64,000 bases of DNA from Candidatus Binatia bacterium (GTDB taxonomy: Bacteria > Desulfobacterota > Binatia > Bin18): contig OZ246888.1 of the NCBI GenBank assembly GCA_965231775.1, positions 338,853-402,852 of the forward strand. The letters run 5' to 3'. The notes below the pieces were generated by a model, which saw only the letters and a program-made list of their open reading frames with translations, had not been told where the DNA came from and searched no databases. Positions 2,632-18,868 of the stretch are shown here, piece after piece. Each line of letters starts with the position of its first letter. The first letter of the stretch is position 1. The position numbers and the translations under genes were made by a program.

Positions 2632-2709
2632 AGTACGCTCTCGCTCCCCCGACCGATGGTCCACGTCCTCACCTATCATTTGGATAGCCAAGGTCGGGAA
2701 GGCAAAGAC

Positions 2710-2928
2710 CTACGGGGCCCACTTCATGCGGAGTTTGCGTTCATTCATGGCACAGTCACGCAGGTATAAATTAATGAGGCTCTGGTATGGAATGCCTGTT
2801 TCCTCGGCCAGAGACTTAAAGTAGGCAATCGTGTCCCGGTCCAGGCGCATGGTCACTGGCTGTTTGAGATGCTTGAGGTAGGGGTTTTTCCGCCCCTTCA
2901 TCTTTGAGAAGTCATAATGGTCTCTCAT
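2710..2928 (-). CDS. BrnA-family (COG3514-like) ribbon-helix-helix antitoxin-like protein; no adjacent toxin
   Basis: The C-terminal 72 aa, MRDHYDF...VTMRLDRDTIAYFKSLAEETGIPYQSLINLYLRDCA, match the BrnA antitoxin pattern. The upstream extension in the track ORF is out of frame with the MFS gene 3' end. Confidence 0.55.
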   Translation of the reverse strand: MRDHYDFSKMKGRKNPYLKHLKQPVTMRLDRDTIAYFKSLAEETGIPYQSLINLYLRDCAMNERKLRMKWAP

Positions 2929-4276
2929 GTTTGTTGCCTCCAGTAATGTCGCTCCTCTCCGCCAGAGCCCGCCGCGCGGCCAGGCGCTCCACTTGGCCGG
3001 CCACCACGCGCACCTTGCGCGGACCGGCCAGCCACATGCTGCCAATGGACACGAAGGCAAACGTCAGCGCAATCCAGAAGGCAGCCGTATAACTGCCGGT
3101 GCGGTCAAAGAGCAGGCCGGTCACCCAGGGGCCGGTCCCGCCGCCCAGACTGCCGGCAATGCTCAGCGTGCCGTAGATACGGCCGTACTGTTTGCCCTGA
3201 AAAATCTCCGCCGGGATGGCGCCGAACACCGAGACTGTGCCGTAGCCCAACATGCCCTGGGCCGCAACCATGGCGTATAACAGCACCAGACTGGGCTGCT
3301 CGGGCATACCGAGCAGGATGACGTAACACAAGACAAAGCCCATCATGCTGATGGTCCAGACCCACTCGCGTCCAATCCGGTCGGAAAGCATGCCCAGCCC
3401 AATCTGGCCGCCGCAGGCGGTCAGCCCAACCAACCCGAGGGCAAAGGCCGCCACCTCGGGTGAAAAGCCGCTATCGGTCAGGTATTTGGTCTGATGCACC
3501 TGGATGGCGTACCAGGCGTACAGACTGCTGAAAAAAGAGAGACCCAACCACCAGAAACGGGAGGTGCGTATGGCGCGCGCCAGGGTCCAGTCGGTCGCGG
3601 CCCAGGCGTGGTCCACGACATTATCGGCCGGGCGCTGTCCACTGTGAATGCTGCTTGGGGCGAGGTCTCCGTCGGGCGCCAAGCCGAGGTCCTCGGGTCG
3701 CCGGCGTTGCAGGATCGCGTTCAACGGCAACACGATCACCACCAAGGTCCCGGCCACCACCCAACACGCCTCCCGCCAGCCGGCCTGATCAATAATGCTT
3801 TGGATCCACGGAAAGAGCAGGATGGAGCCAACGCCCACGCCGGAAAAGGCAAGCCCCAGGGCCAGCCCGCGGCGGCGCACAAACCAGTAGGGTAAAAACA
3901 GGGAGTGACCGAGATAGCTGATGGAGGTACTCGCACCGCCGACCAGGATGCCGAAGGTGACATACAGATGCCACGGCTGAGAGACCAGAGTAATCGAGAC
4001 CATGCCGATGCTGACCAGTACCGCGCCCAGCGGGATGACCACGCGTGGCCCCCAGCGATCCATGAGCATGCCGACCAGGGGGGCGTACACGGTGGCCGCC
4101 AGAAAACCGCAAGAAAAGGCCGCGGCCGTACTGCCCCGGTCCCAACCGAATTCCGCCAGAATGGGCGGAAACAACAAGGAGAAGGTCGTGCGCGTGTTCA
4201 CGCCGATCGCCAGGGTGACAAAGGCCACGGCCACGACCGCCCAGCCATAATAAAAGGGGAATTCTTTTCGCCGCAT
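2912..4276 (-). CDS. MFS transporter
   Basis: 12-TM hydrophobic profile with MFS-like loops. Start taken at MRRKEFPFYYGWAVVA (4276) rather than at the upstream track start. Confidence 0.8.
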   Translation of the reverse strand: MRRKEFPFYYGWAVVAVAFVTLAIGVNTRTTFSLLFPPILAEFGWDRGSTAAAFSCGFLAATVYAPLVGMLMDRWGPRVVIPLGAVLVSIGMVSITLVSQPWHLYVTFGILVGGASTSISYLGHSLFLPYWFVRRRGLALGLAFSGVGVGSILLFPWIQSIIDQAGWREACWVVAGTLVVIVLPLNAILQRRRPEDLGLAPDGDLAPSSIHSGQRPADNVVDHAWAATDWTLARAIRTSRFWWLGLSFFSSLYAWYAIQVHQTKYLTDSGFSPEVAAFALGLVGLTACGGQIGLGMLSDRIGREWVWTISMMGFVLCYVILLGMPEQPSLVLLYAMVAAQGMLGYGTVSVFGAIPAEIFQGKQYGRIYGTLSIAGSLGGGTGPWVTGLLFDRTGSYTAAFWIALTFAFVSIGSMWLAGPRKVRVVAGQVERLAARRALAERSDITGGNKHERPL

Positions 4277-5299: not shown

Positions 5300-5967
5300 T
5301 GTTAAAGTTTATGGCCGCTGTTCGGCGTCTGGATCATATTTCGCACGATGAGCTGGTCCACGCCTGGGAACACATTCACGCCCCGCATGTCGTTTCGCTG
5401 GTCAAGCCGGAACGCTATCGCATCACCTTCTTCGACCCGCCCTCGGACAGCGCCGATGCGGACAGCCGTCCACCGGACGGTATGGCCGAGCTGTGGTTCC
5501 GGGATAGAGAGCATTTTGAGACCACGATCGGACGGCAGGCCCCGCCCAATATAGACGCCGACAAATTCAGTACCTATGCCGCCATCCAACCGGGCTGCAA
5601 TCTGTTTGTGACCGAGCATCTCAACGTTGATGGGCCGACGACCCGCGACACCACCAAGCTCACCTTCTTTATCAAGAGACGCCAGGGAATCGAGCGCGCC
5701 CACCTGGACGACTACTGGCTGAAGGTCCATGTGCCGAACGTTGTTGCGGCCATCAATAATACGCCGGACGCGGTACGCTATTCCGTGGACTTGGTGGATC
5801 AGGCCGAGTCTGAGCGAGAGCGCACCTACGACGGCGTGGCCCAAATCTGCATCGACCATGCCAACGCCACCTTCGCCGACATCCAGGGCTATGAGCCGGA
5901 CGGTTTCGGCGAGCTGGTCGAACCCATGCTGGTGGTTAGTGGGCACGAGGTGCGTATTGTGGGCTGA
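5300..5967 (+). CDS. tandem EthD-like / dimeric alpha+beta-barrel protein
   Basis: Two internal repeats, each with the EthD-like pattern (HxxxH..P, W..VHVP). RBS aaggaggg precedes the ATG at 5300. Its last ~58 codons have a divergent second copy at 10859-11032. Confidence 0.6.
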
Positions 5968-5970
5968 CTG

Positions 5971-6243
5971 GTGTCGGGAACGACAATGAACGGGAACGAA
6001 CGCTCTATACCCCGAGATTTTGATCGAGATACGGCACCAGACCTGTCTAGGGACGGCTGGCCGGAGAAGTTCGCCAAGGCGACTGTCCGCCGTGGCCGGC
6101 TACCGGTCGCCAAACCGAAAGTGTCAACGACCATCCGTCTGTCACAGGACGTGATCGATCACTTCAAGGCCGGCGGTCGCGGCTGGCAGACGCGAATCGA
6201 TAAGGCGCTCCGCGAGTGGATCTGGAAACATAACGCCGCGTGA
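5971..6243 (+). CDS. BrnA-family ribbon-helix-helix protein (orphan)
   Basis: C-terminus KVSTTIRLSQDVIDHFKAGGRGWQTRIDKALREWI matches the BrnA/COG3514 signature (TIRLDxDVLDWFKAQGKGYQTRINAVLRAY). Starts 4 nt after the EthD stop. No BrnT-like ORF is adjacent. Confidence 0.6.
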   Translation: MSGTTMNGNERSIPRDFDRDTAPDLSRDGWPEKFAKATVRRGRLPVAKPKVSTTIRLSQDVIDHFKAGGRGWQTRIDKALREWIWKHNAA

Positions 6244-6268
6244 TGATGGATCGGCTGCGTGACCTTAC

Positions 6269-6519
6269 TCAGCTTCCATCCGCGAGAAGTGCCTTGAGCT
6301 TGGCTTCCGTCAAGCCGTTCGTGGATGCCTCCTCGCCCAAGGCATCCATCGTCATTGTCAGGCGTTCCCAGGCAGCGCCACGAAGTTGCTCATAGTGTTC
6401 ACCGACATCATCACGCCGACCACCCTGCCTTTCTTGGTCACACGCACGGGGGCGCGCTGCACAGCGTCAAGCAAATAGCCGAAGCGATTCTTGGCATCCC
6501 TGGCGGTAATTTCTTTCAT
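6269..6519 (-). pseudogene. Phd/YefM-family antitoxin, frameshifted (1-nt deletion near 6392)
   Basis: Manual translation: MKEITARDAKNRFGYLLDAVQRAPVRVTKKGRVVGVMMS, then a frame break. The next frame continues EHYEQLRGAAWERLTMTMDALGEEASTNGLTEAKLKALLADGS. Rejoined, this gives a typical ~83-aa Phd/YefM antitoxin. No cognate toxin gene is present. Confidence 0.55.
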
Positions 6520-6559
6520 GGGGGATGTAATAGCTACTATGCTCTCTTCTCACAATGAG

Positions 6560-6632: not shown

Positions 6633-9600
6633 ATGTTTGACATCTCCAAGGATCAACTGCGCCAACTCAACGATGTGGATTTACGAGAATTGGTCGCTCG
6701 TTTGTGTGAAGCGGAATTGAGTCGCGCAGGGGCACCAGTCAGCGCGGTGAGATGGGGTGGTGCTCAGACCGCTCCCGATGGGGGCTTAGATGTTGAAATC
6801 CTAGTCAAAGACCAAGAGTTTGCAGGCGACTTCGTACCCCGTACTTGGACCGGAATTCAGGTCAAGAAATCAAACATGCCGGCTAGCAAGATCGCCGAGG
6901 AAATGTCTCCCAAAGGAGTTCTGAGACCCATCTTCCCGGAGCTTGCGAGACATAACGGCTGCTACATCATCGTTAGCCTGGCCGATGATCCCGCTGGCAC
7001 CAATCTTGGTGATCGAGAGAAGGCAATGCAGACGCAGATCGAGCCGGTCAAGGACCAGGGAGACCTGCGAGTAGAGTTTTACGGATGCGGCCGTCTTGCC
7101 GACCGGCTGCGTCAGCATCCTGGTGTCCAGCTTTGGGTGTGCGAAAAGCTGGGCTTGCCGTTGAGTGGATGGAGGCCGTTCGGGAGGTGGAGTACGACAC
7201 CGCCGGGCGTTGAGGACGACCTGATCTGCGAAGCGGGTGTTACTATTGCGCTTCCGGGAGGGAGGGACAAGTTAGATATCGCGCAAGGAATAGATGGAAT
7301 CCGAGAACTTATAAGAAGCTCAGGCAAAACGGTGCGGATTGTCGGTCTATCCGGGGTTGGTAAATCCCGAATCGTCCAAGCTTTGTTTGAAGAAACCGTC
7401 GGAGACAGACCCCTCGACAGACACCGTGCGATATACGCGGACCTTGGTGAGGTACCGGACCCGCCACCCCGAACGGTTCTTGGGCGTCTTGCTGCTGAAA
7501 AACATCTAGCAATCATAGTATTGGACAACTGTTCGTCCGATGTACACAACCGAATTGCTAGCCAAGCTGCTTCCTCGTCAAACCTTCGCCTTGTCACGGT
7601 CGAATACGACATCCGAGAGGACAAGCCCGAAGAGACCAGGGTTGTTCGGATTGATGCCGAAGGCCCCGAAATAGCTGAAACGCTAATTAAAAGACGGCAC
7701 CCTGACCTCGGTCCAGTCAATGCACAACGGGTCGCCGAGTTCTCGGGCGGCAACGCCCGGGTCGCGCTCGCGCTTGCAGACACGGCAAGTGAGGAGAAAG
7801 AAAGCCTTTTAAGTTTCTCCCCTGCACAACTCTTCGACAGGCTATTCTATCAGCGAGGTGCACCCGACGCAGACCTGCTCAAGGCTGCTGAGGTTTTGGC
7901 GCTCGTATACTCGTTTTCCATTAGCGCCAATGAAGGCGGTGTGGATGAACTCGCCACGCTTGCCGGATTGCTGGATCAGAATCGACGTGCACTACACAGG
8001 GAGGCACAAACGCTTGTTGAGCGACAGCTCGCGCAGAAGCGAGGAGCTTGGCGTGCAGTTTTGCCACATGCACTGTCCAATCGGCTTGCTAAAAGGGCAC
8101 TCGAAAATATCCCCGTTGACGACATCCTCAATACTTTTCAAGGGCTATCAAATCCTCGCCTGCTGAAGTCGTTCGGAAAACGTCTTGGATATCTCCATGA
8201 TCACGAGATCTCACAGGATATCGTCAAATCCTGGCTATCACCCGGTGGACTATTGCACGACCTGTATCTGCTTGATGAAGATGGTATCCAACTCCTTCTG
8301 AATGTGGCTCCGGTAGCTCCAGAAGATGTCTTGAACGCCATTGAGGCTCAGGATACAGGCGGAACAACTGAAATATCCTTCTCTAGGGGAAGTCTACGCC
8401 TCAGGGGAAACTCGCGCCTCTCTACATTTGCGGATCTCTTAGTCGCGATCGCATATGACCCCGATCTCTTCGAAAGATGCGTCGTCCGCCTAGCCAAGTT
8501 TGCTCTGATGGAAACAGAAGAAGAGGGGGAAAATGTCAGTGGTATACGGGGCCGTCTCTATGGTCTGTTTTCATTGTATTTTTCGGAGACCGAGGCTGGC
8601 CCAGACGCTCGTGAGCATGTTGCTCGCCGTTTTTTGTCAAGTGGAGACCGAAACGAACAGAGGCTTGGCTTGGGGATGCTCAGGGCAGCGTTGCGGGGTA
8701 CAAATCAGTTCTTGGCTGGGACTGTCGAATTCGGTGCTCGACTAAGGTTCTACGGTTACCATCCCCAGACTCACGAAGAACACGACCAGTGGTTTATACG
8801 GTTTGTTGCGCTAGCGTGGAAGATAGCCACTGGCGAAGATGTATATCTTTCGACTCAAGTGCGCGCTCTACTCGCGAGCGAGTTACGGGGGCTCTGGGAC
8901 CATTCGGGACTGCGCGAAGCGCTAGTGGATTTAGCGATGGCCCTCAATGAGCAGCGGCCTTGGCTGGAAGGTTGGCGGGCTGTCCGACAAATCAAGCACT
9001 ACGACTATCGCAGGACCCGTGGTACCAAATTATTAGATAAGCTCGATGAGATGCCAGAGTCAGAGCGACCGTCCGATAAAGAAACCAAAACCTATGTTCT
9101 CAGCGCACGATTATTAGATAAGCTGGATGAGACGCTGAAACCAAGAGGACTTGCCGATGAGGTCAGAACCTATGTTCTCAGAGCAGATCACGAACTGTCT
9201 ACCTTGGATGAAGAGTTCGACTTCGATGACAATCAGAGCTGGCAGGAGGCAAACAAACGCGCGGCTGCAAGGGCCTACGACCTTGGTACAGTCGTGGCAG
9301 ATGAGTCGAACGTCCTGAATGAGCTATCGGAGGAGCTCTTCACGGCTCAGAACGGCTATCTCTTTGAATTTGGGAAGGGTGTAGCGTCGAAGTGTAATGA
9401 CCTACAAGGTCTTTGGGAGCGTCTTATTGAGTGGCTCGAACTCGCTGGCGATCAGGCGTGCCATGGTGGTGTCTTGAATGGCGTCCTTAAGGTTACTCAC
9501 GAGCGCGATGAACCGTTAGCACAGAAAATCCTTGATGAAGCGGTACAAAAACGCATTCTCAGAAAATTCATTGTCAGCCTCCAGGTATCGGTTCCATTAG

Positions 9601-10559
9601 GTGATACAGGCGTTTACCGTCTTCACAGGTCACTCGACTTCGAAGATACGCCACTGCGACAATTCGGCAACCTTGCTTGGCATCGTCCGCTCAACACGCT
9701 AAGCGAAGCAGATATTCGGGACCTGATGCTAAAGATGTTGGGCAGGCCTGAAGGCGCTGAAGTCGTCCTTGATGGCTTGAGTATGCGACTGCACGTGTTG
9801 AAAAATGACAACCTCACCTTGGGCCCTGACCTCAAAGGAGCAGGCATACTTGCCTCCGCCGCACTGCTACGCCATAGAGCGGATTATTACGATGGTGGCT
9901 CAATCGATCTTCACCTGTCGGAAGTCTTGAAGTCCTGCATGGACGAAGTCGAGTTTCCCACAGAGACCGGTGAAGTCTTCGATGCGTTTCTCACCAGATT
10001 GAGAGCGTCGTATGGCTACGTGAGTGGTATAGAGAAGGCAGTAGCGGTTCTGGCGGAGAAGACAACATTTCGATTCCTCGATGGCATCTTCCTTGATGCT
10101 GCGCTTAAGGACTATCGCCACACGATTTTTCGGGTAGGGCGTGACGAGGAAAACCCGCTTTCTGGTGTCTCCGTTACGACACTATTAGATTGGTGTGGGC
10201 AAGACGACTTTCAGGAACGGCTGATCATGCTCTCGGAAGCGATTTATCCGTTTGAAAAAGAGCCAGAGGGTGATGGCATCGTATTGTCAGAACAAGCATA
10301 TGCCATTATAGACGCAACACAGGACCCCTCTACAGTTCTGAGAAATTTCTGCTCTTCTGCGAGGCCTAATGGATGGTCGGGGAGTTTGGCGAACATCATC
10401 GCGAAGCGAGGCCAGGCTTTTATGACATTGTTAGAGCATGGCCAATCCGATATCCGCGATGCGGCCGCAGCACAAATCGCTCAAATCAATCAGTGGGAAG
10501 AACAGCAGCGAAGCTACGAGCGGGCCGGGGATGAACAACGTGAGCAGCGTTTTGAGTAA
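6633..10559 (+). CDS. Avs/AVAST-like antiviral STAND NTPase with N-terminal Mrr-like PD-(D/E)xK nuclease domain
   Basis: N-terminus (aa 15-125) matches the Mrr_cat pattern: LRELVARLCEAEL...PDGGLDVEI...GIQVKK...CYIIVSLA (D...QxK). Walker A GLSGVGKS is at aa 238-245 (nt 7344-7367). Walker B is LAIIVLDNC. About 850 aa of helical-repeat C-terminus follow. Compositionally lower GC than the flanks. Confidence 0.65.
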   Translation: MFDISKDQLRQLNDVDLRELVARLCEAELSRAGAPVSAVRWGGAQTAPDGGLDVEILVKDQEFAGDFVPRTWTGIQVKKSNMPASKIAEEMSPKGVLRPIFPELARHNGCYIIVSLADDPAGTNLGDREKAMQTQIEPVKDQGDLRVEFYGCGRLADRLRQHPGVQLWVCEKLGLPLSGWRPFGRWSTTPPGVEDDLICEAGVTIALPGGRDKLDIAQGIDGIRELIRSSGKTVRIVGLSGVGKSRIVQALFEETVGDRPLDRHRAIYADLGEVPDPPPRTVLGRLAAEKHLAIIVLDNCSSDVHNRIASQAASSSNLRLVTVEYDIREDKPEETRVVRIDAEGPEIAETLIKRRHPDLGPVNAQRVAEFSGGNARVALALADTASEEKESLLSFSPAQLFDRLFYQRGAPDADLLKAAEVLALVYSFSISANEGGVDELATLAGLLDQNRRALHREAQTLVERQLAQKRGAWRAVLPHALSNRLAKRALENIPVDDILNTFQGLSNPRLLKSFGKRLGYLHDHEISQDIVKSWLSPGGLLHDLYLLDEDGIQLLLNVAPVAPEDVLNAIEAQDTGGTTEISFSRGSLRLRGNSRLSTFADLLVAIAYDPDLFERCVVRLAKFALMETEEEGENVSGIRGRLYGLFSLYFSETEAGPDAREHVARRFLSSGDRNEQRLGLGMLRAALRGTNQFLAGTVEFGARLRFYGYHPQTHEEHDQWFIRFVALAWKIATGEDVYLSTQVRALLASELRGLWDHSGLREALVDLAMALNEQRPWLEGWRAVRQIKHYDYRRTRGTKLLDKLDEMPESERPSDKETKTYVLSARLLDKLDETLKPRGLADEVRTYVLRADHELSTLDEEFDFDDNQSWQEANKRAAARAYDLGTVVADESNVLNELSEELFTAQNGYLFEFGKGVASKCNDLQGLWERLIEWLELAGDQACHGGVLNGVLKVTHERDEPLAQKILDEAVQKRILRKFIVSLQVSVPLGDTGVYRLHRSLDFEDTPLRQFGNLAWHRPLNTLSEADIRDLMLKMLGRPEGAEVVLDGLSMRLHVLKNDNLTLGPDLKGAGILASAALLRHRADYYDGGSIDLHLSEVLKSCMDEVEFPTETGEVFDAFLTRLRASYGYVSGIEKAVAVLAEKTTFRFLDGIFLDAALKDYRHTIFRVGRDEENPLSGVSVTTLLDWCGQDDFQERLIMLSEAIYPFEKEPEGDGIVLSEQAYAIIDATQDPSTVLRNFCSSARPNGWSGSLANIIAKRGQAFMTLLEHGQSDIRDAAAAQIAQINQWEEQQRSYERAGDEQREQRFE
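9030..9191 (+). repeat. in-frame tandem duplication (2 x 81 nt) inside the STAND gene C-terminal region
   Basis: ttattagataagctcgatgag...aaaacctatgttctcagcgcacga is directly followed by ttattagataagctggatgag...agaacctatgttctcagagcagat. The peptide repeat is LLDKLDEMPESERPSDKETKTYVLSA / LLDKLDETLKPRGLADEVRTYVLRA. Confidence 0.8.
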
Positions 10560-10608
10560 CTGTACGGAGCGCAAATATCCGAACGGTTGAGGGAAAGGTA
10601 GGCTTATC

Positions 10609-10869
10609 ATGAGTGGATACGATAAACCCCTCACCCCCAGACAGATCGCGACCACGAAGGACGAGAGCATCGATTTCAGCGATATTCCTGAGTTGGATGA
10701 GACCTTCTGGCAGCAGGCGGAACTCGTCGAACCCGACCTCACCGACCAGATTACCCTGCGTGTCAAACGGTCCGTGTTGGCCTATTTCAAGGCTCCGGGA
10801 AAGGGCTACCAGACGCGGATCAACCAGGTGCTCGAAAGCTACGTGCGGTCGCAACGCGGACCTGGTTGA
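10609..10869 (+). CDS. BrnA-family ribbon-helix-helix protein (orphan)
   Basis: ELDETFWQQAELVEP...ITLRVKRSVLAYFKAPGKGYQTRINQVLESYV is the BrnA/COG3514 signature. It starts 49 nt after the STAND gene stop. Its last 11 nt overlap the start of the EthD-like fragment. Confidence 0.6.
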   Translation: MSGYDKPLTPRQIATTKDESIDFSDIPELDETFWQQAELVEPDLTDQITLRVKRSVLAYFKAPGKGYQTRINQVLESYVRSQRGPG

Positions 10870-11032
10870 TCTGACCGATTCTGAGCGTGCTTACGGTGGC
10901 GTCGTACAAATCTGTATCGATCATCCCAACGCCACATTCGCGGATATTCAGGGCTATGAGCCAGACGGTTTTGGTGAGTCGGTCAAACCCATGCTGGTAA
11001 TCAGTAGGCATGAGGTTCATATTGTGAGTTGA
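10859..11032 (+). pseudogene. 3'-terminal fragment (~57 codons) of an EthD-like gene, divergent copy of 5788-5967
   Basis: DLVDLTDSERAYGGVVQICIDHPNATFADIQGYEPDGFGESVKPMLVISRHEVHIVS* aligns with DLVDQAESERERTYDGVAQICIDHANATFADIQGYEPDGFGELVEPMLVVSGHEVRIVG* of the intact gene. No start codon or N-terminal half. Third codon positions are AT-shifted relative to the intact copy. Confidence 0.75.
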
Positions 11033-16592: not shown

Positions 16593-16859
16593 CTACCACC
16601 AGCCCAGCTCAAACGTATGCAGGGCGCGGCGCTTATAGTCGTACAGGGACGTGCCGCAGAACCCGCATTTAAGCGAGGACCACACCGAGCGCGGGCGAAT
16701 CGCCGCGTGGAGCGGCTTCATATAGTGCTGGTTGTCTTCCAGCAAATCCTGGGTGAGCGCCCAGCGCGTGATCTCGTACAGTGCATAGCCGCACTTCGGC
16801 TCCGGGCAGGTCAGGACCATCCCGGCGATAAAGGGTCGATTCGATATGGCGCGGGCCAC
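16593..16859 (-). CDS. hypothetical 4-Cys (zinc-ribbon-like) small protein
   Basis: CPEPKCG...CGFCG motif. Abuts the acyl-CoA dehydrogenase stop, giving an operon position. No recognised family. Confidence 0.35.
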   Translation of the reverse strand: MARAISNRPFIAGMVLTCPEPKCGYALYEITRWALTQDLLEDNQHYMKPLHAAIRPRSVWSSLKCGFCGTSLYDYKRRALHTFELGWW

Positions 16860-18080
16860 TTAGCGCACTCCTTTGGCATCGCGCTGAGTCCAGCGACCTA
16901 ATTGTGACATATGGACCTCGTCCGGCCCGTCGGCGATGCGGCAGAAGCGGCTGGTCAAAAACACGTGCTGGATCGGCGTGTCCTGACTGACCCCCTTGCC
17001 GCCGAAGGCCTGCGTGGCCCGGTCGGCCACGGTCTGGCACATCTGCGGGGCGACGATTTTGACCATGGAAATGAAATCGCGCGCACCCTTCGGTCCCTCG
17101 CGGTCCATCTTGTCTGCCGCCGCAAGCACCAGCAGCCGGCACTGCTCGATGTCACACCGGGAGCGGGCGATGTCATGTTGGATGCTGGTCTTTTTGCTGA
17201 GGGTCTCGCCAAATGCCACCCGGTCGCCCACCCGCTGGCACATGAGCTCAAGACAGCGCTGGGCCATGCCGACAAACATCATGGCGTACTGAAAGCGGCC
17301 CGGCCCCAATCGGCCCTGGGCAATCTCAAACCCGCGGCCTTCGCCCAGAATGAGGTTCTCTCTGGGGACGCGGACATCCTCAAATACAAGCTCGCCTTCT
17401 CCGCCGGGAGAGTGGTAGCTGCCAAAGGCCCTGAGTGGCCGGACAATCCGAAAGCCCGGCGTGTCAACCGGGACCAGGATGGTCGAGTGCTGGGAATGAC
17501 GCTCCGCCTCGGGATTCGACCTGCCCATGACCAACATGACCTGGCAGCGCTCGCTCAACACCCCGGTGATCCACCACTTGCGCCCGTTGAGCACATAGTG
17601 GTCCCCATCGCGCACGATAGACAGCTCCATATTCGTCGCGTCCGAGGAGGCAACCTGGGGTTCGGTCATGGCATAGGCCGACCGAATCTCCCCGTTCAGT
17701 AAGGGCTTGAGCCACTGCTCCTGCTGGGCCGGCGTCCCGTATTTTGCCAGGACCTCCATATTGCCCCGGTCCGGCGCGCTACAGTTGAAGACTTCCTGCG
17801 CCCAGAACACCTTGGCCATCACCTCCATGAGCGGCGCGAACTCCAGATTGGACAGGCCCGGACTCCAGGGCTCATATTCACGCGGCAGGAACCAGTTCCA
17901 GATACCGGCCGCCTTTGCCTTGCGCTTGAGGTCTTCAAAGAAGGGCGGATATTTCCACAGATTGTTCTGATCCTCGACAAACTCGTAATAGGCGGGCTCG
18001 ACCGGATAGATATGCTCGTCCATGAAGCGCTCAAGTTGTGCTCGCATGGCCAGGATCTTGTCGCTCGGGGCAAAGCTCAT
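16860..18080 (-). CDS. acyl-CoA dehydrogenase family protein
   Basis: ACAD fold motifs (YAMTEP, GRKWWITG, C-terminal FGG.G). 4-bp overlap with the upstream SDR gene. Confidence 0.85.
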   Translation of the reverse strand: MSFAPSDKILAMRAQLERFMDEHIYPVEPAYYEFVEDQNNLWKYPPFFEDLKRKAKAAGIWNWFLPREYEPWSPGLSNLEFAPLMEVMAKVFWAQEVFNCSAPDRGNMEVLAKYGTPAQQEQWLKPLLNGEIRSAYAMTEPQVASSDATNMELSIVRDGDHYVLNGRKWWITGVLSERCQVMLVMGRSNPEAERHSQHSTILVPVDTPGFRIVRPLRAFGSYHSPGGEGELVFEDVRVPRENLILGEGRGFEIAQGRLGPGRFQYAMMFVGMAQRCLELMCQRVGDRVAFGETLSKKTSIQHDIARSRCDIEQCRLLVLAAADKMDREGPKGARDFISMVKIVAPQMCQTVADRATQAFGGKGVSQDTPIQHVFLTSRFCRIADGPDEVHMSQLGRWTQRDAKGVR

Positions 18081-18868
18081 GGCAGGTCCTGCTCTTCCTT
18101 GGCCGCACCCAGGCGTTCCTGCAAACGGTTCATGCCCCTCAGCCAGCGATCATAGTCGCCGGTTTTGCGTTGCATATACTCCAGGACCTGGGGATGCGGC
18201 AAAATAAGGAAACGCTCGGCCCGCAGGCCCTCGACGACCACCTCGGCCAACTCCTCCGGCTCCATCAGGCCGTCAACACTCGCCGCGCGGCTGCTCTCAT
18301 TGTTCTCCAGCATGGGCGTTCTGACCGCTTGGGGACACAGCAGTGAAACCTTGATGCCCTGGTGCGCGTGTGTCAGCGCCAACCACTCCCCAAAGCCGAC
18401 CGTGGCATGTTTGGTCACACCATAGGAGGCCGAACCGATCTGATTGAGCAAGCCCGCGGCCGAGGCGGTATTCAGCAGATAGCCTCCACCCCGGGCAATC
18501 ATGCGCGGCACCAGCGTGCGGGCGGCATAGATATGCGACATGACGTTGACATCCCAACTCTTCTGCCAGACCTCGTCCGAGGTTTCCAGGCCACCGGTCA
18601 GCGCAATGCCGGCGTTGGAACAGAACAGATCGATCGGGCCGATGTCGCGCTCGGTGTGGTCAATCACCCGCACCACGTCAGCCTCTGTGGATACATCCGC
18701 CGTCATGGCGACCGCGCCAATCTCGGCCGCGACCTCAGCCGCCCCGGTCGCGTTCAGGTCCACCACCACGACCGACCGCGCGCCCTCGGCCGTAAAGCGC
18801 CGACACAGCGCTCTGCCGATGCCACTCGCCCCACCGGTGACGACGATGATTTTCTCCTTGAGTTCCAC
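18077..18868 (-). CDS. SDR-family oxidoreductase (GTG start)
   Basis: VVTGGASGIGRA motif. Strong RBS gaggagg lies 7 nt upstream of the GTG at 18868. The track's longer N-terminus lacks support. Confidence 0.75.
   Translation of the reverse strand: MELKEKIIVVTGGASGIGRALCRRFTAEGARSVVVVDLNATGAAEVAAEIGAVAMTADVSTEADVVRVIDHTERDIGPIDLFCSNAGIALTGGLETSDEVWQKSWDVNVMSHIYAARTLVPRMIARGGGYLLNTASAAGLLNQIGSASYGVTKHATVGFGEWLALTHAHQGIKVSLLCPQAVRTPMLENNESSRAASVDGLMEPEELAEVVVEGLRAERFLILPHPQVLEYMQRKTGDYDRWLRGMNRLQERLGAAKEEQDLP

What the first reader, a model, noticed from the sequence alone, without database searches (positions are those of the whole stretch)
6633..10559. 1308-aa Mrr-nuclease / STAND NTPase / helical-repeat protein: candidate Avs-like antiviral sensor
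- The domain order is read directly from the sequence. An Mrr_cat-like PD-(D/E)xK nuclease fold comes first (PDGGLDVEI ... IQVKK). A STAND-type P-loop follows (GLSGVGKS, then hhhhLDNC Walker B). About 850 aa of helical repeats complete the protein.
- Known AVAST/Avs proteins (bacterial NLR-like antiviral STANDs) have exactly this effector-NTPase-sensor order and similar length.
- The gene is the sole large cargo of a horizontally acquired segment.
- It is unusually flanked on both sides by BrnA-type ribbon-helix-helix genes and preceded by a decayed Phd antitoxin. It could therefore be a distinct or regulated variant rather than a textbook Avs.
Basis: partly seen in the sequence, partly recalled or inferred. 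Interest (0 to 1): 0.75.

Follow-up and report, generated by a model that had tools for sequence, protein, structure and literature searches.

The report
Avs8 (PD-λ-4) antiphage STAND nuclease
The 1308-residue gene is a real, intact bacterial antiviral sensor, but it belongs to the already named and tested Avs8 (PD-λ-4) family, which detects phage capsid protein and then destroys DNA, so it is a new member of a known kind.

Summary
The ORF at 6633-10559 (+) is real and intact. Residues 1-195 model as a PD-(D/E)xK, Mrr-like nuclease fold, with E26, D49, D53, Q76 and K78 invariant. Residues ~200-540 model as a STAND NTPase, with Walker A K244 and Walker B D298 invariant. About 770 further residues follow.

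It is not a new kind of Avs. The PADLOC model PD-Lambda-4_A matches it end to end (E=0, 1166 bits). It aligns along its whole length, at 37% identity, with the E. coli Avs8A locus, identified by its neighbour Avs8B (WP_000443183.1). Two 2025-26 preprints show that E. coli Avs8A binds HK97-fold major capsid protein monomers and then degrades dsDNA in an ATP- and Mg-dependent way, and that Avs8B is dispensable.

The window has no Avs8B. That gene occurs only in Enterobacteriaceae loci.

The two flanking BrnA genes and the broken Phd gene are real, but they are not a conserved part of the system:
- BrnA lies next to Avs8A only in this lineage, at one chromosomal site.
- The upstream BrnA is a 282-bp indel absent from the closest relative.
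- A third orphan BrnA-like gene lies 3 kb away.

The gene is compositionally foreign (GC3 0.53 against 0.64-0.79 for neighbours) and is bracketed by a duplicated 3' end of the EthD gene.

Verdict: new member of a known family; low interest.

The parts
6633..10559 (+). Avs8A (PD-lambda-4A) family gene, 1308 aa, intact
   Evidence: ORF. PADLOC PD-Lambda-4_A PDLC03991 matches residues 1-1308 against profile positions 3-1283 of 1283, E=0, 1166 bits. 37% identity and 54% positives over the full length with the E. coli Avs8A allele.
6633..7217 (+). N-terminal PD-(D/E)xK (Mrr-like) nuclease effector domain, aa 1-195. Motif residues: E26, D49-G-G-L-D53 (nt 6777-6791), Q76-V-K78 (nt 6858-6866)
7218..8252 (+). 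STAND NTPase module (nucleotide-binding, helical and winged-helix-like parts), aa ~196-540. Walker A G238-S245 (nt 7344-7367); Walker B around D298 (nt 7512-7532)
   Evidence: AF2 model of aa 1-540, pLDDT 84.5. The top Foldseek PDB hits are STAND proteins: 6mfv at 1.7e-7, then NRC3, NLRC4, NOD2, NRC4, CED-4 and EfAvs5. G238, L239, S240, G241, G243, K244, D298, N299 and C300 are invariant. Pfam gives only a weak AAA_16 match at 229-263.
8253..10556 (+). C-terminal sensor region, aa 541-1308 (not modelled here)
   Evidence: Aligns along its whole length with the E. coli Avs8A sensor, but at only 29% identity. [quoted passage not shown] The helical-repeat structure of this region was not tested here.
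9029..9185 (+). Internal tandem duplication of about 26 aa within the sensor (KLLDKLDE...TYVLSA / RLLDKLDE...TYVLRA)
   Evidence: Direct repeats D5 and D7, spaced 78-81 nt apart. The extra copy is present only in the window protein and in P0002, P0006 and P0013. It is absent from more distant homologues, including E. coli.
10609..10869 (+). BrnA-2: orphan BrnA-type ribbon-helix-helix antitoxin-like gene, 49 nt downstream of Avs8A
   Evidence: Pfam BrnA_antitoxin, E 7e-13. Also present after Avs8A in L001, L002 and L094, which share the same chromosomal site. There is no room for a BrnT gene.
5986..6243 (+). BrnA-1: orphan BrnA-type gene upstream (the ORF can also be read from GTG at 5971)
   Evidence: Pfam BrnA_antitoxin, E 1.6e-19. 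It lies in a 282-bp segment (5986-6267) that starts at its ATG and is absent from the syntenic relative L001.
6269..6520 (-). Phd/YefM-type antitoxin pseudogene (frameshifted), divergent from Avs8A
   Evidence: Pfam PhdYeFM_antitox matches the N-terminal 53-aa ORF. Two ORF pieces in different frames each match the intact 83-aa Phd of L001 at about 1e-19.
5818..5967 (+). 3' end of the intact EthD-domain gene: left copy of the direct repeat bracketing the island
   Evidence: the repeat finder family D1: 150 nt, 80% identity, spacing 5065 nt. Pfam EthD match for 5302-5964.
10883..11032 (+). Remnant copy of the EthD 3' end: right copy of the direct repeat
   Evidence: Repeat D1. It translates to ...QICIDHPNATFADIQGYEPDGFGESVKPMLVISRHEVHIVS*, parallel to the end of the intact gene. 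The same remnant is present in L001.

Best explanation
The gene encodes an Avs8A (PD-lambda-4A) family antiviral STAND protein. It is a single-polypeptide pattern-recognition receptor. By homology with E. coli Avs8A, the C-terminal sensor binds a newly made, unassembled HK97-fold major capsid protein of an infecting tailed phage. Binding, together with ATP at the STAND NTPase, drives oligomerisation, probably into a tetramer. That activates the N-terminal Mrr-like PD-(D/E)xK nuclease, which degrades double-stranded DNA without discrimination and aborts the infection.

Shown here: family membership, the nuclease fold with intact catalytic residues, the STAND fold with intact Walker motifs, an intact ORF, and a compositionally foreign island.

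Inferred from the literature on a 37%-identical homologue: the trigger (capsid protein), the ATP and Mg dependence, the DNA degradation and the oligomeric state.

The gene acts alone. No Avs8B is present, and the flanking BrnA and Phd genes are orphan antitoxin-type genes of a variable region rather than parts of the system.
For: - **Family profile.** PADLOC PD-Lambda-4_A matches end to end, E=0, 1166 bits, and no other PADLOC family reaches E<=1.
- **Alignment with the tested homologue.** The protein aligns along its full length with the E. coli EC71 Avs8A allele: 37% identity, 54% positives, E=0. That locus is identified by its neighbour WP_000443183.1, the Avs8B accession given in the Whiteley-lab preprint.
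- **Nuclease domain.** The N-terminal model matches PD-(D/E)xK nucleases, including Mrr-type AF1548, LlaBIII and Avs4. E26, D49, D53, Q76 and K78 are invariant.
- **NTPase domain.** The model matches STAND proteins first. Walker A K244 and Walker B D298 are invariant.
- **Published mechanism for Avs8A.** It binds lambda gpE (Kd 127 nM) and the Bas21 capsid protein (Kd 14 nM). It shows capsid-protein-triggered, ATP- and Mg-dependent dsDNA degradation. Nuclease active-site mutants lose defence, and Avs8B is dispensable.
- **Independent confirmation.** A second group found that Avs8 senses major capsid proteins and binds the A-domain penton/hexon interface.
- **Defence-type neighbourhoods.** Homologues sit beside type I and type ISP restriction-modification genes, Abi genes, a reverse transcriptase, transposases and plasmid genes.
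Against: - The sensor region is only 29% identical to the E. coli sensor, against 45% for the nuclease and 51% for the NTPase module. It also carries a lineage-specific 26-aa duplication. The trigger or its phage range could therefore differ.
- The C-terminal fold was not modelled here.
- No experiment exists for this protein or its host, which is known only from metagenome-type assemblies.
Confidence: 0.8

Rival explanations
1. It is an Avs8-family protein whose diverged sensor recognises something other than the HK97 major capsid protein. It would share the effector and switch but have a different trigger.
For: Sensor identity to E. coli Avs8A is only 29%, and the sensor is the fastest-diverging part across the family. 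There is a clade-specific 26-aa duplication inside the sensor. [quoted passage not shown]
Against: The sensor aligns over its full length without rearrangement and ends in the same REQRFE C-terminus. The PADLOC full-length profile covers it entirely. E. coli Avs8A already recognises capsid proteins that share under 15% sequence identity, so recognition depends on the fold and tolerates sequence drift. [quoted passage not shown]
Confidence: 0.12
2. Phd, Avs8A and BrnA form a regulated, toxin-antitoxin-like module. The orphan ribbon-helix-helix and Phd proteins would repress or neutralise the toxic Avs8A in this lineage.
For: BrnA-2 follows Avs8A by 49 nt on the same strand, the position an antitoxin holds after a BrnT toxin. 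Phd is divergently oriented across a short AT-rich intergenic region. The trio Phd-Avs8A-BrnA is conserved in L001, L002 and L094, whose Avs8A proteins are 81-85% identical to the window's.
Against: The trio is found only at one chromosomal site. Avs8A genes 75-79% identical, sitting at other sites (L003, L091, L092, L093), have no BrnA or Phd. A BrnA profile finds no BrnA-like ORF (E < 0.1) anywhere in the other 87 family loci then held, and the four fetched later show none in their Pfam gene tables. Phd is frameshifted in the window while Avs8A remains intact. BrnA-1 is a 282-bp indel absent from L001. A third orphan BrnA/CopG gene lies at 2710-3060, unrelated to Avs8A. E. coli Avs8A works alone.
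Confidence: 0.06
3. It is a decaying, non-functional relic of a horizontally acquired defence gene.
For: The neighbouring Phd is a pseudogene. There is no integrase or other mobility gene in the island. Some family members are truncated or interrupted, for example L081 and L017.
Against: The 3927-nt ORF is uninterrupted, and every invariant catalytic and nucleotide-binding residue is kept. Orthologues at the same site in diverged genomes (about 89% nt identity) are also intact.
Confidence: 0.02

Closest known systems
E. coli Avs8A = PD-lambda-4A (ECOR07 WP_000963924.1; allele WP_217823150.1 in strain EC71). Sources: Vassallo et al. 2022 (PMC9519451); bioRxiv 10.1101/2025.07.02.662641; bioRxiv 10.64898/2026.01.04.697583
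   Same: The two proteins align along their whole length and have nearly the same size (1308 against 1283 aa). They share the domain order Mrr-like nuclease, STAND NTPase, large sensor. The nuclease motifs (APDGGxD, Q-x-K-K), Walker A (GLSGVGK[ST]R) and Walker B (LDNC) are identical, and the C-terminal EQRFE is shared.
   Different: Overall identity is 37%, and 29% in the sensor. The window has no Avs8B gene downstream; Avs8B occurs only in Enterobacteriaceae loci. The window protein has a 26-aa tandem duplication in the sensor. The host is a high-GC uncultured lineage rather than Enterobacteriaceae, and the nearest species-representative genomes are MAGs labelled Entotheonella, Binatia and Alphaproteobacteria.
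Avs4 and Avs3 (AVAST types with an Mrr-like nuclease effector; PDB 8dgf)
   Different: No PADLOC family other than PD-Lambda-4_A matches at E<=1. The sensors differ, and Avs3 and Avs4 sense terminase and portal respectively, not the capsid protein.
Avs7 and Avs10 (other STAND sensors of the major capsid protein)
   Same: [quoted passage not shown]
   Different: Their sensor architectures differ, and no sequence similarity to them was detected here.
BrnTA and Phd-Doc/YoeB type II toxin-antitoxin systems (for the flanking genes only)
   Same: The flanking ORFs match the BrnA_antitoxin and PhdYeFM_antitox families above Pfam's gathering scores.
   Different: No cognate toxin gene is present, and the gaps are too short to hold one. 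Phd is frameshifted. These are orphan antitoxin-type genes.

Membership tests
Avs8 / PD-lambda-4A | Full-length match to the family's sequence profile | tested here: met
   PADLOC PDLC03991 PD-Lambda-4_A: residues 1-1308 against profile positions 3-1283 of 1283, E=0, 1166 bits. Two shorter PD-Lambda-4_A models also match.
Avs8 / PD-lambda-4A | Full-length, same-order homology with the experimentally characterised E. coli Avs8A | tested here: met
   BLASTP: 37% identity, 54% positives over 1314 columns, E=0. The E. coli locus is identified by the adjacent Avs8B, WP_000443183.1.
Avs8 / PD-lambda-4A | N-terminal Mrr-family PD-(D/E)xK nuclease effector with intact catalytic residues | tested here: met
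Avs8 / PD-lambda-4A | C-terminal TPR-like alpha-helical sensor of the Avs8 structural cluster | tested here: inconclusive
   The sequence aligns with the E. coli sensor over its whole length, but at 29% identity.
Avs8 / PD-lambda-4A | Activation by direct binding of monomeric HK97-fold major capsid protein | not testable with these tools
   Shown only for E. coli Avs8A.
Avs8 / PD-lambda-4A | ATP- and Mg-dependent dsDNA degradation, and phage defence lost in nuclease mutants | not testable with these tools
   Shown only for E. coli Avs8A.
PD-lambda-4 two-gene operon as first defined (A + B) | Avs8B (PD-lambda-4B) gene immediately downstream | tested here: not met
   tblastn of Avs8B against the whole window gives a best E of 3.2. 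PADLOC gives no hit for the neighbouring ORFs. Avs8B is present in only 8 of 90 family loci, all Enterobacteriaceae. Avs8B is dispensable for defence.
STAND NTPase superfamily | P-loop nucleotide-binding domain with Walker A and B, followed by helical and winged-helix-like domains, closest in structure to STAND/NLR proteins rather than other AAA+ proteins | tested here: met
   Foldseek against the PDB: 6mfv (a STAND-TPR protein) at 1.7e-7, then NRC3, NLRC4, NRC1, NOD2 and NRC4. ORC/Cdc6, RuvB and p97 rank mostly below these, alongside CED-4 and EfAvs5. Walker residues are invariant.
AVAST types Avs1-5 (Gao et al. 2020) | Sequence match to the Avs1-5 profiles | tested here: not met
   Only PD-Lambda-4_A models match in PADLOC-DB at E<=1. 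That PADLOC-DB includes Avs1-5 models rests on my own knowledge of that database.
BrnTA toxin-antitoxin system (flanking genes) | A BrnT toxin gene adjacent to BrnA | tested here: not met
   The gaps next to BrnA-1 (5968-5985, 6244-6268) and BrnA-2 (10560-10608, 10870-10882) cannot hold a gene. The neighbouring ORFs are EthD, Phd and Avs8A.

The most novel reading that the evidence does not exclude
In this lineage the orphan antitoxin-type DNA-binding proteins around the gene have been co-opted as transcriptional regulators that keep the toxic Avs8A sensor in check. These are BrnA-2, 49 nt downstream on the same strand, and the divergently transcribed Phd. That would be a toxin-antitoxin-derived control layer on a bacterial NLR-like receptor. 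The trio is conserved at this site in three related genomes. The evidence does not exclude this reading, but most comparative data speak against a required link.
Probability: 0.08. Interest if true: 0.45.

Novelty: new member of a known kind. Interest (0 to 1): 0.2.

Why it matters
The gene adds a divergent, intact Avs8 capsid sensor from a high-GC uncultured lineage to a family that has so far been studied only in Enterobacteriaceae.

- **Family definition.** The family is a single-gene system across many phyla, and Avs8B is an enterobacterial add-on. Annotation rules that require both A and B genes would probably miss loci like this one; that is my inference and was not tested.
- **Comparative material.** The conserved nuclease and NTPase residues, set against the fast-evolving sensor (29% identity to E. 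coli), give useful material for mapping which sensor surfaces are constrained by capsid-fold recognition.
- **Limits.** It does not open a new question. The mechanism and family were already published in 2022-2026.

Tried and rejected
- **Avs8B is absent.** I searched the window and the neighbouring ORFs and found none.
- **BrnA and Phd are not conserved partners.** I tested this with phmmer, with a three-sequence BrnA HMM run at --max over all ORFs of the 90 loci then held, and with the Pfam gene tables of four further loci (L091-L094) in the >=75% clade. The association was rejected. I also prepared a Pfam count of flanking small ORFs, but dropped it because naive ORF calling in high-GC loci was too noisy.
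- **The promoter and terminator scan was uninformative.** Counts were no higher than in shuffled sequence.
- **No integration target RNA.** Rfam and tRNA scans of the window were empty, so there is no tRNA integration site.
- **The source organism could not be identified.** The exact protein is on record from a 5.19-Mb NCBI/ENA contig, but without a name, and the look-up of encoding contigs did not return it.
- **Rejected readings.** A non-defence STAND regulator is unlikely because the N-terminus has a nuclease fold rather than a DNA-binding effector. A pseudogene is unlikely because the ORF is intact and all invariant residues are kept.
Full report
**Observation**

The window holds an uninterrupted ATG-started ORF at 6633-10559 (+) that encodes 1308 residues.

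Base composition drops across the gene. GC is 0.53 and GC3 is 0.53. Neighbouring genes have GC3 of 0.64-0.79.

**Identity**

Pfam gives only a sub-threshold AAA_16 match at the P-loop, and NCBIfam gives nothing. PADLOC-DB matches the whole protein to PD-Lambda-4_A: residues 1-1308 against profile positions 3-1283 of 1283, E=0, 1166 bits. No other defence family reaches E<=1.

PD-lambda-4 was found by functional selection in E. coli (Vassallo et al. 2022, PMC9519451). Two preprints have since renamed it Avs8.

I retrieved an E. coli locus in which a 1283-aa gene is followed by WP_000443183.1, the exact Avs8B accession given in bioRxiv 10.1101/2025.07.02.662641. The window protein aligns with that Avs8A allele from end to end: 37% identity, 54% positives, E=0. 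The nuclease motifs, Walker A, Walker B and the C-terminal EQRFE are all shared. By domain, identity is 45% for the nuclease, 51% for the NTPase module and 29% for the sensor.

**Independent tests of the domain reading**

- *NTPase module.* An AlphaFold2 model of residues 1-540 (36-sequence alignment, pLDDT 84.5) matches STAND proteins first in a Foldseek search of the PDB. The top hit is the STAND-TPR protein 6mfv (1.7e-7), followed by plant NRC resistosomes, NLRC4 and NOD2. Generic AAA+ proteins rank mostly below these, alongside CED-4 and EfAvs5.
- *Conservation.* E26, D49, G51, D53, Q76 and K78 are invariant in 26 homologues from Proteobacteria, Firmicutes, Chloroflexi, Nitrospirales, Cyanobacteria and others. 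The Walker A residues, including K244, and D298-N299-C300 are invariant too.
- *Limits.* Sequence methods alone did not recognise the nuclease domain. The C-terminal region was not modelled, so its helical-repeat nature rests on homology and on the literature.

**Mechanism (inferred by homology)**

These results are for E. coli Avs8A:
- It binds lambda gpE (Kd 127 nM) and the Bas21 major capsid protein (Kd 14 nM).
- It then degrades linear dsDNA, and this requires ATP and Mg.
- It is not triggered by assembled virions.
- It loses defence when nuclease active-site residues are mutated.
- It is predicted to form a tetramer.
- Avs8B is dispensable.

Lee et al. (bioRxiv 10.64898/2026.01.04.697583) independently found capsid-protein sensing by Avs8. 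Their AlphaFold3/AF-multimer model places the capsid protein's A-domain penton/hexon interface in the sensor.

The window protein keeps every catalytic and nucleotide-binding residue, so the same mechanism is the best-supported explanation. The identity of the trigger is the least secure step, because the sensor has diverged most.

**Family spread and context**

The family is large. There are 1953 database proteins at E<=1e-5. Relatives occur in 339 stretches of the species-representative genome collection, and on plasmids of Rhizobium, Leptospira, Enterobacter, Burkholderia, Bacillus and others.

The nearest named genomes are MAGs labelled Entotheonella (66%), Binatia (57%), Alphaproteobacteria (53-54%), Aphanocapsa feldmannii (46%) and Dadabacteria (64%, P0043). 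To my own knowledge several of these lineages are sponge-associated. That is an inference, not a result.

Avs8B occurs in only 8 of 90 loci, all Enterobacteriaceae. It is absent from the window.

**The island**

A 150-nt direct repeat (80% identity, 5065 nt apart) duplicates the 3' end of the EthD-domain gene on either side of the segment.

The closest relative's Avs8A is 85% identical, on a 4.4-Mb contig (L001). That contig is collinear with the window at about 89% nucleotide identity. Its gene order is SGL, EthD, Phd (intact), Avs8A, BrnA, EthD remnant, VWA, luciferase-like monooxygenase. L094 (81%) shows the same order from SGL to BrnA and then the monooxygenase; no VWA gene is called there, and the EthD remnant was not checked.

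The insertion therefore predates the split of these genomes. The island carries no integrase.

Avs8A genes 75-79% identical sit at other chromosomal sites (L003, L091, L092, L093). This indicates that the gene moves between sites.

**The flanking antitoxin-type genes**

Both BrnA ORFs and the Phd fragment are real, but they are not part of a conserved system.
- BrnA next to Avs8A is confined to the EthD site (window, L001, L002, L094). It is absent at the other sites in the same clade. No BrnA-like ORF (E < 0.1) turns up anywhere in the other 87 family loci then held, even with a permissive profile search.
- BrnA-1 is a 282-bp segment (5986-6267) that begins at its own ATG and is missing from L001.
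- Phd is frameshifted in the window.
- A third BrnA/CopG-type ORF lies at 2710-3060 (-), where L001 instead has an MNT/HEPN pair.

Small orphan antitoxin-type genes therefore appear to be variable fillers of intergenic slots in this genome. Other family loci carry different small genes nearby, such as DUF2442 or HicB-like genes.

**Verdict**

The protein is a divergent member of the already characterised Avs8/PD-lambda-4A family, so this is a new member of a known kind and of low interest.

The most novel reading not excluded is that BrnA-2 and Phd regulate Avs8A in this lineage. I put that at about 8%.

Noticed in passing
window 5986-6267: BrnA-1 is a gene-sized indel. This 282-bp segment begins exactly at the gene's ATG and ends 24 nt after its stop. 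It is absent from the otherwise collinear relative L001, where only 2 nt separate the same flanks.
   Followed up: partly
window 2634-2957 (ORF 2710-3060, - strand) vs L001 3592-4552: A third orphan BrnA/CopG-type antitoxin-like ORF (Pfam E 3e-9) fills an intergenic slot after the MFS transporter gene. The relative L001 carries an MNT/HEPN (NTP_transf_2 + HEPN) pair at the same place. Small toxin-antitoxin-type cassettes seem to be swapped at fixed intergenic slots between these genomes.
   Followed up: partly
window 5818-5967 and 10883-11032: The last ~50 codons of the EthD-domain gene are duplicated (150 nt, 80% identity) on both sides of the Phd-Avs8A-BrnA segment. The downstream copy still reads as an open frame ending at the equivalent stop. 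This looks like the footprint of an insertion into the 3' end of EthD that brought its own replacement end. No integrase is present, and no empty site was looked for.
   Followed up: partly
window 9029-9185 (aa ~799-851 of the protein): There is a tandem duplication of about 26 residues (LLDKLDE...TYVL) inside the sensor region. It is present only in the closest clade (P0002, P0006, P0013) and absent from all more distant Avs8A proteins.
   Followed up: partly
loci L011, L012, L015, L017, L081; protein P0043: The nearest relatives of this Avs8A (46-71% identity) come from MAGs of very different phyla: Entotheonella, Binatia, the cyanobacterium Aphanocapsa feldmannii, Dadabacteria, Ca. Foliamicus and Rariloculaceae. 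To my knowledge several of these are sponge-associated, which would suggest gene exchange within one habitat. L081 (match to residues 1-622; longest ORF 725 aa) and L017 (match spread over 5.7 kb) look truncated or interrupted.
   Followed up: no
window 16845-18091 vs L001 18003-18030: A 1.25-kb segment holding an acyl-CoA dehydrogenase gene (16860-18080, - strand) is present in the window but absent from the collinear relative L001.
   Followed up: no
L010 10898-11644; L048, L040, L049, L038, L037, L062, L041: Avs8B, the dispensable second gene of the original PD-lambda-4 operon, is found only downstream of the enterobacterial Avs8A genes. In L009 (E. coli STEC434) a reverse-transcriptase gene follows Avs8A in its place.
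   Followed up: partly
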